Assembly (NCBI GenBank): GCA_000004695.1
Contig: CM000150.2
Span: forward strand, 2,176,001-2,240,000
DNA from: Dictyostelium discoideum
Taxonomy: Eukaryota
DNA: 64,000 nt
Direction: 5' to 3'
Numbering within the stretch: position 1 is the first letter of the stretch; the number at the start of each line of letters is the position of its first letter. Of this stretch, positions 47,501 through 64,000 are shown one piece after another. Made by a program: the position numbers.

Positions 47501-49600
47501 TCAATTATTCAAGTTTCAACCAATTATTCATTCACTGATATTAGATTTGAATCATGTATAATTGATCAATACAATTCAAATAATTCAATGATTGAAATTA
47601 ATAAATTAATTAGTCAAGATTTAATATTACCAAATAGTCATTTAAAAATTAATAATTCTCAAATTTCAAATATTCAAATTGTTAATAATGCATCATTAAT
47701 TTATGCAATTAATACAATTATTGGTATTTTTCAAACATCAGTTATCAACGCAACTAATGTTCAAAGTATTATTGAAATTTCATATGGTCAAAATTTAGAT
47801 GTTGAATATTCAGATTTCTCAAATGTGAATAGTGTTTATGGTATTTTCAATGTTTTAAATACTCAAGTCTCAATTGGTGATGGTAATTTCAATAATAACA
47901 TAGCAACAAATGGTGCATCAGTTTTAACATTTACATCAAATGTCACTAGTGTATACAATGCTGGTGTTGCTCGTTGCAATTTCAATGAGAATAGTGGTAC
48001 TGATGGTGGGGTTTTCCAAGGTGTAAATACAGATTCAAGTTTGGAAGATTACAGCTCAAGTATCACCAGTTGTACTTTTTCAGGTAGTAGTGCAAATAAT
48101 GGTGGTGCAATCTTTGTAGATAATATACCTCTTTCAATTGTTAATTGTCAATTTAGTGATGTCACTGCAAATGTTGCTGGTGCATTTGTTTATAATAGTA
48201 ATAATCATTTTGCAATGACAAATGTTACATATACTGAAAAATCATTAAATACTACAAAAACAAAAACAGCAACAACATCTGGAATTGAAGAATATGCTAT
48301 TTATATTTCAAGTTCAAGTGGTTCAATACAAAATGCTACATTTGATGATAATAGTTATTCAATTTTTTGTAATACTTCAACTGTTAAAATTGATGCAACC
48401 TCTAAGGTATCAACATTTACTTGTGCTCAGTGTAATATGGTTTTAGGTCAAAATCAAATTTGTAGTGTTGGTGGAAGTTCAGTTTCAAGCTCAACTTCTG
48501 CTTCTGGTTCAAGTTTGTCTGTAAGTAGTAGTGGTGCTCAATCATTAACTGTCACTTCAACAAGTTCAACTCCTCAAACTTCTGGTACAGGTTCAAGTTC
48601 AAGTACAAGTTCAAGTACAGGTTCAAGTACAAGTTCAAATTCTCATACTATTATTACTACCACAACAACTGGTGTATCTAATCAATTATCACCATCATTT
48701 TCAATTTTAATTTTCATTATTTTATTATCATTACTTTTAATTCAATCATTTTAACTTTTTTTTTTTTTCTTTTATCATTTTTAAAAAATAAAATTTCCAA
48801 TTCAATCAAATAATAAAGAAAATTTAAAAACTAAATAAAAATTAATTAGCATAATATTTAACCAATTTTTTATTTTTTTTTTTGTTTATTTTTGATAAGA
48901 CTTTTAAATATAAATTTTAAAAAAAAAATAATTGTGAAATTAAAACAAAATTCAAAAACAGTATAGATTAATAGGGTTGTTCGAATAATAAAAAATTTTT
49001 TTAAAAAAATTAAAAAAAAAAAAAAAAAAAAAAACCCCAAAAAATTAAAAATAAGATATTAGGGTTTTTCATGATGAAAAAACCCAATAACTTTTTTTTT
49101 TTCCAATCAATTTTTATAATATAAAAAAAAAAAAAAAACTAAAAAAATATCTTTTTTATAATAGCGCTATTATGCTTTTTTATTAAAATTAATTATTTTT
49201 TTTAATTTTTTATTACATTTTTGAAAATCAAGCAATGGCGATTTTTGGTTGGCCCCATTTCCATAAAATTTGATTTTTTTTTTTTTAATTTTTTATTACA
49301 TTTTTGGAAATCAGGCAATGGCGATTATTTTTTTTTGGTTAACCCCCTTTTTTATTTTAATCACTTAAAATTTTAAGAGTTTAAAATAAAAAATCAAAAA
49401 TTTCTATTTTTTTTTTTTTTTAACAAAATCCTTAATTTTAATTTTAATTTTTTTTTTTTATTTTTTATTTTTAAAGAGATAAAATGCCCCAAAATAAAAG
49501 TCAAACAATAAAACTATCTCATTTTTTAAGAGATAATCTTCTTAACTATCCAGTAAGTTCAAATAAATTTATTTATTTATTTATTTATTTATTTCTTTGT

Positions 49601-49643
<43 letters not shown>

Positions 49644-61800: not shown

Positions 61801-64000
61801 ATATTTCAATTTTTTATAATTTACCAATTCACCCATGCATTGGAAGCAGTGATCAAAAGTTTAGTAGTATTACATATAAAAGCATATGTGTGGACTATGA
61901 AAAAATTGATCAATATGAAATTAAAGGATTGAAATTAATAAAGGTTAATGAATTATCAAAATATAAAAGCATTGTCGATTCTATTCCAACAAAACAAATT
62001 TTTAAAGGTGAAAAACAGATTTATAGGTTTTATTTAATTCCAAACATTGGTTCCTTTGAATTAAATGTTTCAATTGAAATTATTACAAAATTTTTAACTC
62101 TTTATGGTAATCATTATGTCGACGATGGTGAATTAAGAAAACTAAAATTTATTCCATCTGAAAATGGTGTTTATTCAACTCCTGATTCATTTTATGTTTT
62201 AGGTCCACTTGAAAGGGATTTAATAAGAAATTTCGAACCATCTAAAATTTTAAATCAATCTTTGGATGGTTTAACTGGTTATTTATCTAAATTTGGCTTA
62301 AAATTTAAACTATCAGATAAACATATATGTTCAAAGGTTATTGATTTTCTTTCAAATCAAGATTCAATAGAAACCTATAAAAATTTTATGGATTATTTAA
62401 ATCAAAGAGGTGAGAATATTGGTGATTCATTAATTGATTTCAAAGATATCCCATTTATTCCATCCAGTGAATTCGATACCTATGATGGATTTGGCTCAAA
62501 TGAATCTAAAATTTCATTATCAGAGTGTACACTATCAAGTTATAAAGATTGTTTATTCACTGTAAAAACTCCAATTAAAGTAACCAAAAATTACAACAAC
62601 CCCATTAACAAATACCTATCATCAAATTTAAATGATAACATTATTCAGCATTTGATTAATTTAAATTCTATGGAATTCAATGATGAAACATCATTCGATC
62701 CAAATATAATTTTCCACAATACCTATAAAGAAATTGATTATTTAATTAAAAATTTCAAACTAAATGATGAACAAAAAAAGAAAATCTCTCAAATTCAATT
62801 AATTTGGTTAGATGGCCAATTAGTACCAAAAGAAAAAATATTTTATAATAGTCCAAACCCAAATTTAGATTTTAAACCTTACTTCTTTGTAACCAAACCA
62901 AAACAAGAACATCTCTTTAAATTTTTAAAACTAAAAGATAAACCAGATTTAAATGATTTCATTAGATTAATCAAATCTATTCAAGATACATATGAGAAAG
63001 AGAGCTCAAATTCAATAGAGTTATTTGAATTGGTTATCTATTCTCTCCAAAACCCTGCATTCAATAAAGAATCACTTATCGATTCAAAAATAAAATTACC
63101 AACCACTGATAATCAATTTGTTGAATTTGAAAAAGTAATTTACGTTGATCATTCATGTTTACCTCAAGAATTCATTGATTTAGGACACAGTGCATTACAT
63201 AATAAAATTTCTGAAAACACTGCATCAAAACTCAATATTATCAAACTTTCTCAATTGATTCAAAGTCAAGTAGCATTTGATCATTCATTTGGACAAAAAG
63301 AAGATTTAGTAGATCGTTTGAAACAAATTTTAAATGATTATAAAGTAGAAGTATTTTTAAATGAAATGGTTCAAGTATGTATTATCTTTCAAATTATTGA
63401 TTTAATTATTACTTTTTTTTTTTATTGAAATTGTACTAATTTTTTTTATTTTATTTTTTTAGAATGCTCATGATGCTGGATCAACAGAAGTAAAATTAAT
63501 TTTAGATTGTAATTCTTTAAAACAACAATTTTTAAAAGAAAATCCAGAGATAAGTACACTATGTAAAGATCTTCCATCATACTTTGAAAGTTCTTTACTT
63601 TTTTATAATAATTCAGTATTTACAGACGACGATATAAAGAATGTTCAAGCAATGACAGCATCAATTAAAAAGCAAGATGAAAAGTGTATTGGTCAACATG
63701 GTTTAGGTATTAATTCAATGTATTCATTCAGTGATTGTCCATGTATATTAAGTGGTGAATATTTGATGATTTTCGATCCATTCGTAACACATATCGGTCA
63801 ATCAATAAACTATTCACATGGTGCTAAATATAAAATTTCACAATACAAACCATATTTAAAATACTTTAAACCATTTCAACATTTACAATCAATTTTTGAT
63901 TTTGATTTAGATGATGGTAAATTCAATGGAACAATCATTCGTTTACCACTTCGTAAGATACAAAACGATGGTAATCGTCATATTAGTCCACAGAAATGGA

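What the first reader, a model, noticed from the sequence alone, without database searches (positions are those of the whole stretch)
49203..64000. Tandem duplication of a ~9-kb giant sacsin-like gene
Two head-to-tail copies (49484..58074 and 59139..>64000) share the same five-exon structure, about 85-90% protein identity and the same conserved 5' element. Each encodes more than 2600 aa with two sacsin repeating regions (ELIQNAEDA ... GxGxNSVYHITD / NAHDAGSTEV ... GLGINSMYSFSD). Sacsin-type double-SRR giants are rare outside metazoa, so a recently duplicated pair in an amoebozoan is unusual. The SRR Bergerat motifs look intact in both copies; the divergence sits mainly in the long linker regions. 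The protein function is unknown; by analogy to sacsin it may be a chaperone-like ATPase.
Basis: partly seen in the sequence, partly recalled or inferred. Interest (0 to 1): 0.75.

Follow-up and report, generated by a model that had tools for sequence, protein, structure and literature searches.

The report
Tandem sacsin-like gene array in Dictyostelium
The window holds one complete and one truncated copy of a species-specific tandem array of giant sacsin-family genes in Dictyostelium discoideum; the array is real and evolves quickly, but it is already annotated and belongs to a family already reported in slime moulds.

Summary
Copy A (49484-58074; five exons, 2660 aa) is identical to DDB_G0268848. 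The 1496 aa of copy B encoded in the window (59139->64000) match DDB_G0268850 exactly. The copies are 87% identical in DNA and 84.5% in protein. Each has two sacsin Hsp90-like modules (Pfam SACS E 1e-118; PDB 5V44-47 E 1e-36), and the ATP-binding residues are conserved.

- The pair is part of an array. AX4 has 3 annotated copies; two other D. discoideum assemblies have 4 (one copy fragmented).
- D. citrinum, D. dimigraforme and D. firmibasis have one gene at the syntenic site. D. purpureum (4) and Tieghemostelium (3) have their own arrays.
- Gene conversion keeps the ATPase-coding parts similar. Paralog dS is 0.06-0.15 there, against 0.32 in codons 580-1000 and 0.10 between orthologs.
- dN/dS is 0.4-0.65, so selection is purifying but weak.
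- The C-terminus is probably a degenerate HEPN domain.
- Sacsin in slime moulds was reported in 2013, so it is not "rare outside metazoa".

In passing: the sacsin modules strongly match TmtA of the bacterial Tiamat anti-phage system. The function is inferred as an ATP-dependent chaperone or scaffold. Interest is modest.

The parts
49216..49243 (+). 5' element, distal copy upstream of gene A (2 mismatches to the proximal copy)
49299..49326 (+). 5' element CATTTTTGGAAATCAGGCAATGGCGATT, proximal copy, 158 bp upstream of the ATG of gene A. It lies inside the duplicated unit, which starts near 49273.
49484..58074 (+). Gene A = DDB_G0268848, 2660 aa. Exons 49484-49552, 49775-50045, 50200-53816, 53972-55873 and 55951-58074; introns of 222, 154, 155 and 77 nt, all GT..AG.
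   Evidence: model; 100% identical to P0001
49508..50564 (+). SRR1 Hsp90-like (GHKL) domain of A, aa 9-235, spanning introns 1 and 2. Key residues E30, N34, D37, the G-box GNFGLGW, T183 and the downstream R385.
   Evidence: (PDB 5V44-47, E 1e-36)
51597..52859 (+). Paralog-specific variable region, aa about 580-1000. A and B are 76-85% identical in DNA here; paralog dS 0.32, dN 0.19. This region has escaped gene conversion.
53739..54637 (+). SRR2 Hsp90-like domain of A, aa 1294-1541, spanning intron 3. Key residues E1316, N1320, D1323 and the G-box GQHGLGI.
57667..58071 (+). C-terminal helical domain of about 135 aa, aa 2526-2660. It is probably a degenerate HEPN domain without an Rx4-6H motif.
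   Evidence: weak support; hhalign negative
58775..58802 (+). 5' element upstream of gene B (4 mismatches)
58935..59126 (+). 86-bp unit repeated 2.2 times in the promoter of gene B. It accounts for the longer spacing between the 5' element and the ATG in B.
59139..64000 (+). Gene B = DDB_G0268850, with the first 1496 of 2661 aa in the window. Exons 59139-59207, 59358-59628, 59764-63374 and 63463->64000. SRR1 is complete; SRR2 is cut by the window end.

Best explanation
What it is. The region is the start of a D. discoideum-specific head-to-tail array of sacsin-family genes: DDB_G0268848, DDB_G0268850 and, beyond the window, DDB_G0268852. The repeated unit is about 8.9 kb. It holds roughly 200 bp of promoter with a shared element, the five-exon gene and a short 3' end, and units are separated by about 0.6 kb of low-complexity spacer.

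How it arose (shown). The array formed by unequal crossing-over after the split from D. citrinum. It still changes in copy number: 3, 4, or 3 intact plus one broken copy in three assemblies. Gene conversion keeps the parts that encode the two ATPase modules nearly identical between neighbours, while a core of about 420 codons (aa 580-1000) diverges freely. All copies keep intact reading frames of about 2650 codons under weak purifying selection.

The protein (shown). It has two sacsin 'SIRPT' units of about 1290 aa each. Each unit starts with an Hsp90-like GHKL domain followed by a middle-domain equivalent with a conserved arginine. The protein ends in a helical domain of about 135 aa that is probably a decayed HEPN domain. 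There is no ubiquitin-like domain and no DnaJ domain.

Function (inferred, about 50% confidence). Each module binds and hydrolyses ATP as proposed for sacsin: Glu30/Glu1316 as catalytic base, Asn34/Asn1320 holding Mg2+, the G-box holding the phosphates, and Arg385/Arg1670 contacting the gamma-phosphate. The protein would then act as a large ATP-driven chaperone or scaffold. The paralogs would be partly redundant, differing mainly in the variable linker.
For: - Duplication and gene models.
- Identity with the annotated genes, and a third AX4 paralog.
- Synteny. The same upstream genes (uridine kinase, Atg-like, spermidine synthase, a pair of about 580-aa genes) and the same downstream GNT-I gene flank one SACS gene in D. 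citrinum and D. firmibasis; in D. dimigraforme only the downstream GNT-I is shared. They flank 4 genes in GCA_054859355.1, and 3 intact plus one fragmented copy in GCA_054859385.1.
- Tree. The D. discoideum copies form one clade, sister to D. citrinum, with A, B and C each having orthologs in other strains.
- Gene conversion. Ortholog dS is about 0.10 in all regions. Paralog dS is 0.31-0.34 in codons 580-1000 but 0.055-0.087 in codons 115-580 and 0.09-0.15 in codons 1000-1319. One 250-nt window is 99.6% identical between paralogs within a strain, against 95.6% between A orthologs.
- Timing. dS to D. citrinum is 0.48-0.60.
- Selection. Omega is 0.4-0.65 between paralogs and 0.14-0.50 between species.
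- Domains. Pfam SACS twice, E 1e-118; NCBIfam NF047352 twice; PDB sacsin Hsp90-like domain 5V44-47, E 1e-36; collinear alignment with a sacsin-like protein of the brittle star Amphiura, residues 7-1781 against 23-1867.
- ATP residues. The residues listed in Table 1 of PMC9880540 are conserved in SRR1 and SRR2 of A, B and C, except F194->W in SRR1, and F194->I and L117->M in SRR2. E30, N34, D37, R385, E1316, N1320 and D1323 are invariant in 21 dictyostelid sequences.
Against: - There is no expression or protein evidence for any copy. No paper in the searchable library names these genes.
- ATP binding by sacsin's own Hsp90-like domain is still debated (abstract of PMC9880540), so the ATPase mechanism is inferred twice over.
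- Omega of 0.4-0.65 is high for an essential chaperone.
- Copy number varies and one copy is broken in one strain, so individual copies are dispensable.
- The partner domains that link vertebrate sacsin to Hsp70 and the proteasome (DnaJ, ubiquitin-like) are absent.
- AX4 copy number beyond the window rests on the database records, not on sequence I could read.
Confidence: 0.8

Rival explanations
1. The array is a conflict or immunity-type locus rather than a housekeeping chaperone. The conserved, conversion-homogenised ATPase modules would act as the signalling or oligomerising engine. The fast-diverging linker (aa 580-1000) and C-terminal region would give each paralog a different target specificity, as in other expanded immune receptor families.
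For: - Lineage-specific tandem arrays recur: D. discoideum 3-4, D. purpureum 4, Tieghemostelium lacteum 3 with HEPN.
- Copy number varies, and one copy is broken, among D. discoideum assemblies.
- Evolution is fast relative to neighbours: spermidine synthase is 96-99% identical across species, against 49-85% for SACS regions.
- Omega is about 1 in codons 601-699.
- The sacsin modules strongly match TmtA of the bacterial Tiamat anti-phage system (E 4e-65; human sacsin E 6e-55).
- The ancestral dictyostelid architecture carries a HEPN domain, and most HEPN domains are RNases of defence systems (PMC3710099).
- Sacsin modules are fused to Death and TRADD-N domains in invertebrates.
Against: - No region-level omega exceeds 1.
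- The divergence of these genes between the two D. discoideum lineages is no greater than that of the flanking DNA: 91-94% against 88-89% nucleotide identity. The locus is therefore not hypervariable within the species.
- The HEPN domain is decayed and lacks the Rx4-6H motif in this lineage.
- No known effector domain is present.
- Homology to a bacterial defence protein does not transfer function; human sacsin shares it.
Confidence: 0.15
2. The extra copies are functionally dead or dying duplicates that drift neutrally. Only one gene of the array matters.
For: - Omega is higher between paralogs (0.44-0.62) than between species orthologs (0.14-0.50).
- One copy is fragmented into 673 + 1079 + 114 aa gene calls in GCA_054859385.1.
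- Three sister species manage with one copy.
Against: - A, B and C each keep an uninterrupted frame of about 2650 codons in a genome with about 22% G+C, where stop codons arise easily.
- Each has an intact ortholog in a lineage separated by dS about 0.10, with omega 0.38-0.65, below 1.
- All ATP-binding residues are retained in all three copies.
Confidence: 0.04
3. The two blocks are an assembly artefact of one locus.
For: None found.
Against: - The blocks differ at about 13% of aligned bases, with many indels in introns and promoters.
- The flanks are not identical.
- Two independent D. discoideum assemblies carry the array, and A and B each have their own closest ortholog.
Confidence: 0.01

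Closest known systems
Vertebrate sacsin (SACS, 4579 aa; ARSACS protein)
   Same: - Pfam SACS domain, with 28-31% identity over the roughly 430 aa of the Hsp90-like N and middle domains.
- The ATP-binding residues and the catalytic-loop arginine are conserved.
- A repeated SIRPT supradomain of about 1300 aa.
- A C-terminal position occupied by a HEPN-type helical domain that lacks the RNase motif, as in human sacsin.
   Different: - Two SIRPT units instead of three.
- No ubiquitin-like domain and no DnaJ domain.
- The HEPN domain is below Pfam threshold.
- Multi-copy tandem array instead of a single gene.
- Four introns, none inside most of the coding sequence.
Dictyostelid sacsin-HEPN proteins (Tieghemostelium lacteum, Heterostelium album, Polysphondylium violaceum 'putative ATP binding protein'; noted in Anantharaman et al. 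2013, PMC3710099)
   Same: - Same length (2530-2730 aa) and the same 2 x SRR layout, alignable end to end.
- Also in a tandem array of three in T. lacteum.
   Different: - They keep a clear Pfam HEPN domain with the (T)RYP motif. The Dictyostelium sensu stricto proteins have only a decayed version.
- Identity is only 24-29%.
TmtA of the bacterial Tiamat anti-phage defence system (PADLOC models PDLC03964-72)
   Same: - Strong profile match over the GHKL and middle domains: E 4e-65, aa 19-390 against profile positions 25-320.
- Weak collinear matches further along the unit.
   Different: - Prokaryotic, with a single module of 1300-1780 aa.
- Reported to carry a PD-(D/E)XK nuclease (bioRxiv 10.1101/2024.10.26.620412), which is not detected here.
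- The function is shown only for bacteria.
Hsp90 N-terminal and middle domains (GHKL ATPases)
   Same: The Bergerat-fold motifs are present: E-x3-N-A-x-D-A, the G-x-x-G-x-G box, a Thr equivalent to Hsp90 Thr171, and a catalytic-loop Arg. This rests on the structure-based table in PMC9880540 and the alignment.
   Different: - The adenine-contacting Asp79 is Asn, as in all sacsins.
- The lid is shorter.
- Pfam HATPase_c_3 is only sub-threshold: 16-20 bits against a cut-off of 25.

Membership tests
Sacsin/Nov domain family (Pfam PF25794 SACS) | Match to the SACS profile above the gathering score | tested here: met
   395.9 bits against a cut-off of 32.8, with two stretches per protein in A, B and C. 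PDB 5V44-47, E 1e-36.
Sacsin proper (vertebrate-type architecture) | Three SIRPT/SRR supradomains | tested here: not met
   There are two SACS hits and one internal repeat, aa 6-430 against 1292-1730.
Sacsin proper (vertebrate-type architecture) | N-terminal ubiquitin-like domain | tested here: not met
   No PF00240 hit. SRR1 starts at about residue 9.
Sacsin proper (vertebrate-type architecture) | DnaJ domain before the C-terminus | tested here: not met
   No PF00226 hit at E <= 1.
Sacsin proper (vertebrate-type architecture) | C-terminal HEPN domain | tested here: inconclusive
   Against: no Pfam hit in copy A, and hhalign against the outgroup HEPN domains gives probability 0.6%.
For: PF05168 hits 7 of 9 C-terminal fragments from copies A, B, C and related Dictyostelium species (best E 5e-4), though not copy A itself. 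An AF2 model (pLDDT 59) gives HEPN proteins as the top Foldseek hits (4NQF E 0.08, TM 0.60-0.63; also 2HSB, 1O3U and HepT), none of them significant. The position also matches the HEPN domain of the outgroup proteins.
GHKL (Bergerat-fold) ATPases | N-box Glu/Asn/Asp, G-box glycines, and the lid Lys and Thr that contact ATP | tested here: met
   An alignment with human SIRPT1-3 was read against Table 1 of PMC9880540. Exceptions: F194->W in SRR1, and F194->I and L117->M in SRR2.
GHKL (Bergerat-fold) ATPases | ATP binding and hydrolysis | not testable with these tools
   This needs recombinant protein. It is debated even for human sacsin.
Tiamat defence system (TmtA) | Match to TmtA profiles | tested here: met
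   E 4e-65, but only over the N-terminal roughly 300-400 profile positions. There are weak hits at profile positions 716-819 and 1085-1209.
Tiamat defence system (TmtA) | C-terminal nuclease domain and a prokaryotic single-gene defence context | tested here: not met
   Pfam detects no nuclease domain, and this is a eukaryotic gene with introns. It is a homolog of the ATPase module, not a member of the system.
Tandem gene array formed by unequal crossing-over with gene conversion | Head-to-tail units, copy-number variation, and paralog dS below ortholog dS in some segments | tested here: met

The most novel reading that the evidence does not exclude
The dictyostelid sacsin arrays are an amoebal innate-immunity or conflict system descended from the same stock as the bacterial Tiamat (TmtA) anti-phage protein. 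On this reading, ATPase modules kept uniform by gene conversion drive a response, and the freely diverging linker and C-terminal regions of each paralog recognise different invaders. This would also suggest that the ancestral role of sacsin itself was in defence.
Probability: 0.12. Interest if true: 0.7.

Novelty: new member of a known kind. Interest (0 to 1): 0.3.

Why it matters
Sacsin's molecular function is still unsettled, and its 520-kDa size hampers work in vertebrates. D. discoideum carries a simpler form with two modules and no DnaJ or ubiquitin-like domain, in a genetically tractable haploid. The whole array, roughly 28-30 kb, could be deleted in one step. The single-copy sister species offer natural controls.

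The locus is also a clean, datable example of array birth, copy-number change and segmental gene conversion in a protist. The strong match of sacsin modules to the bacterial defence protein TmtA is a lead on where this family came from.

None of this changes the basic picture. The genes are annotated, the family was already reported in slime moulds, and the duplication is an ordinary lineage-specific expansion.

Tried and rejected
- Hypervariable locus within the species. The best hits in other 'D. discoideum' assemblies were only 82-90% identical. But the flanking DNA of that assembly is equally diverged from AX4 (88-89% nucleotide identity), and ortholog dS is a uniform 0.10. The idea was rejected: that lineage is simply divergent.
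- AX4 flanks. Look-ups of DDB_G0268850 and DDB_G0268852 found no record. The AX4 copy number therefore rests on protein records.
- HEPN by profile-profile comparison: negative. A PDB sequence search with the C-terminal profile gave only noise. MAFFT had misaligned this region.
- Structure of the last 330 aa: low confidence, pLDDT 59. The fold hits are suggestive only.
- Literature. Nothing was found for the gene IDs, for 'sacsin' with 'NO VEIN', or for the phyletic spread of sacsin in Romano et al.. No paper was found that links Tiamat to sacsin.
- Other features. There are no tRNA genes in 40-64 kb. Tandem repeats are only low-complexity intron and promoter tracts.
- Region-level positive selection: not found. 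The only window with omega near 1 is 100 codons long.
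Full report
**Source and observation**

The window is very AT-rich (G+C about 14-32%). Its proteins identify it as Dictyostelium discoideum AX4 chromosome 1.

A blastn of 58.6-64 kb against 48.5-58.6 kb gives one long collinear match, 59053-64000 against 49401-54506. It is 87.3% identical over 5120 columns. A weaker upstream match joins 58746-58977 to 49273-49472. The duplication is therefore real.

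**Gene models**

I built the models by hand from ORFs and GT..AG boundaries.
- Copy A has exons 49484-49552, 49775-50045, 50200-53816, 53972-55873 and 55951-58074. Its product is 2660 aa.
- Copy B has exons 59139-59207, 59358-59628, 59764-63374 and 63463 onward, at the same intron positions. It is cut by the window end after 1496 aa.
- The A product is identical to DDB_G0268848. The B fragment is identical to the first 1496 aa of DDB_G0268850, which is 2661 aa.

**What the protein is**

- Pfam SACS (PF25794) matches twice, with E 1e-118, in A, B and a third AX4 paralog, DDB_G0268852.
- NCBIfam NF047352 (sacsin N-terminal ATP-binding-like domain) matches twice.
- The N-terminal 235 aa match the crystal structures of the sacsin Hsp90-like domain, 5V44-47, with E about 1e-36.
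- The two halves of the protein are internal repeats: aa 6-430 align with 1292-1730 at 27% identity.
- The protein aligns collinearly with a sacsin-like protein of the brittle star Amphiura over residues 7-1781. The homology therefore covers whole SIRPT units, not only the ATPase.

I aligned both modules of A, B and C with the three human modules. I read this alignment against the structure-based list of ATP-contacting residues in Perna et al. 2023 (PMC9880540).
- The catalytic Glu, the Mg-binding Asn, Asp/Ala of the N-box, the Asn that replaces Hsp90 Asp79, Phe164, Asp168, Lys180, the three G-box glycines, Thr269 and the catalytic-loop Arg are all present.
- The exceptions are F194->W in module 1, and F194->I and L117->M in module 2.
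- E30, N34, D37, R385, E1316, N1320 and D1323 are invariant in 21 dictyostelid sequences.
- No ubiquitin-like or DnaJ domain is detected.

**The C-terminus**

More distant dictyostelids (Tieghemostelium, Heterostelium, Polysphondylium) have the same two-module layout plus a clear Pfam HEPN domain. The D. discoideum proteins have no HEPN hit at threshold, and a profile-profile comparison was negative.

Three weak lines agree that the last 135 aa or so are a decayed HEPN domain:
- The domain sits in the same position as HEPN in the outgroup proteins.
- Pfam HEPN hits 7 of 9 C-terminal fragments from the three copies and related Dictyostelium species, with best E 5e-4.
- A low-confidence AF2 model (pLDDT 59, a four-helix bundle) has HEPN proteins as its best Foldseek matches: 4NQF (E 0.08, TM 0.6), 2HSB, 1O3U and HepT toxins.

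No Rx4-6H motif is present. I treat this question as inconclusive but likely.

**Extent and history of the array**

I compared the locus with other assemblies.
- In D. discoideum GCA_054859355.1, the same upstream genes are followed by four tandem SACS genes (2684, 2647, 2650 and 2653 aa) and then GNT-I on the opposite strand.
- In GCA_054859385.1 there are three intact genes plus one copy broken into three gene calls.
- AX4 has three annotated proteins, each alone in its 90% cluster.
- D. citrinum, D. dimigraforme and D. firmibasis each have a single SACS gene followed by GNT-I; in D. citrinum and D. firmibasis the upstream genes are also the same as in the window.
- D. purpureum has four in tandem, and Tieghemostelium lacteum has three in tandem, with HEPN.
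- In a neighbour-joining tree the D. discoideum copies form one clade sister to D. citrinum. A, B and C each pair with orthologs from the other strains. The D. purpureum and outgroup paralogs form species-specific clades.

**Gene conversion and selection**

Nei-Gojobori estimates over the in-window overlap give dS 0.155, dN 0.083 and omega 0.54. But dS is very uneven along the gene.

I used a four-way alignment of AX4 A and B with their orthologs in the first of the other two assemblies (GCA_054859355.1). Ortholog dS is about 0.10 in every region. Paralog dS is:
- 0.31-0.34 in codons 580-1000;
- only 0.055-0.087 in codons 115-580;
- 0.09-0.15 in codons 1000-1319.

In one 250-nt window the two paralogs of one strain are 99.6% identical, while the A orthologs are 95.6% identical. 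So conversion between neighbours has continued after the lineages split, in the parts that encode the ATPase modules. A central core has escaped it.

In that core, dS to D. citrinum is 0.55-0.60. This places the duplication after that speciation. Omega is 0.4-0.65 between paralogs and 0.14-0.50 between species. That indicates purifying but weak selection, with no regional signal of positive selection.

The genes evolve much faster than housekeeping neighbours. Spermidine synthase is 96-99% identical across these species, against 49-85% for SACS regions.

**The 5' element**

CATTTTTGGAAATCAGGCAATGGCGATT occurs twice upstream of A and once, with 4 mismatches, upstream of B. None is expected by chance. 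It also lies upstream of copies 1, 2 and 3 in the other strain, but is not recognisable in the single-copy species. It is part of the duplicated unit and a candidate promoter element. I could not test its function.

**Comparison with what is known**

The genes are annotated, and UniProt names them 'Sacsin/Nov domain-containing protein'. Anantharaman et al. 2013 already note sacsin with HEPN in Dictyostelium and Polysphondylium (PMC3710099). No paper in the library names these three genes. The claim of rarity outside metazoa therefore does not stand.

**The TmtA match**

One thing I had not expected: PADLOC models of TmtA, the single protein of the bacterial Tiamat anti-phage system, match the sacsin modules strongly.
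- The scores are E 4e-65 for copy A, 3e-76 for T. lacteum and 6e-55 for human SIRPT1.
- There are weak collinear hits further along the unit.
- I found no paper that states this link.

Several other facts point the same way: the recurrent lineage-specific arrays, the copy-number variation, the ancestral HEPN domain, and the Death and TRADD-N fusions of sacsin modules in invertebrates. Together they keep a conflict-system reading alive. But nothing here shows it. The locus is no more diverged between D. discoideum lineages than its flanks.

**Verdict**

This is a real, well-delimited tandem array of sacsin-family genes. It expanded recently and is still undergoing gene conversion and copy-number change. 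It is a known family in an annotated genome, and its function is inferred only by homology. Interest is modest.

Noticed in passing
window 49484-64000; also human sacsin (P0056) and T. lacteum (P0015): The sacsin ATPase and middle modules strongly match PADLOC profiles of TmtA, the protein of the bacterial Tiamat anti-phage defence system (E 4e-65, 3e-76 and 6e-55). Weak collinear hits lie further along the SIRPT unit. No paper in the library links Tiamat and sacsin.
   Followed up: partly
L001, L006 (GCA_054859355.1); L007, L008 (GCA_054859385.1): Array copy number varies among D. discoideum assemblies: four intact genes in one, three intact plus one fragmented copy (673 + 1079 + 114 aa gene calls) in another, and three annotated genes in AX4.
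   Followed up: partly
L001 compared with window 39720-64000: The assembly labelled D. discoideum GCA_054859355.1 is only 88-91% identical to AX4 in DNA across this whole locus (ortholog dS about 0.10). That is more than expected for strains of one species, so it may be a cryptic lineage.
   Followed up: no
window 45088-46833 and 47009-48754 (+): Immediately upstream lies a second tandem pair: two 581-aa proteins with a signal-peptide-like N-terminus, 65% identical to each other and with no Pfam domain. The pair is conserved in D. citrinum and D. firmibasis and evolves as fast as the SACS genes (60-77% identity between species).
   Followed up: partly
L009 10001-28099 (Tieghemostelium lacteum): Three head-to-tail SACS+HEPN genes (2677, 2674 and 2533 aa). 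This is a tandem array of the same family in a distant dictyostelid.
   Followed up: no
L002 1021-28380 (D. purpureum GL871052.1): Four head-to-tail SACS genes. Three are 87-89% identical to each other and one is about 65% identical to them. The array lies next to a rhomboid gene rather than the D. discoideum flanking genes.
   Followed up: no
window 58935-59126: An 86-bp unit is repeated 2.2 times in the promoter of copy B. It is absent from copy A and lengthens the distance from the 5' element to the ATG.
   Followed up: no
window 24545-28240 (+): A Roco-family kinase ORF (LRR, Roc, COR-A/B and protein kinase domains).
   Followed up: no
window 28411-37065 (-): Large ORFs of 2122 and 540 aa with TMEM131-like N-terminal and Ig-like domains. 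They are probably one gene with an intron.
   Followed up: no
window 50068-50117, 53857-53908 and 59249-59310: Homopolymer runs of 50-62 A or T lie inside the introns of both copies. Intron lengths differ between copies (222/154/155 nt against 150/135/88 nt).
   Followed up: no
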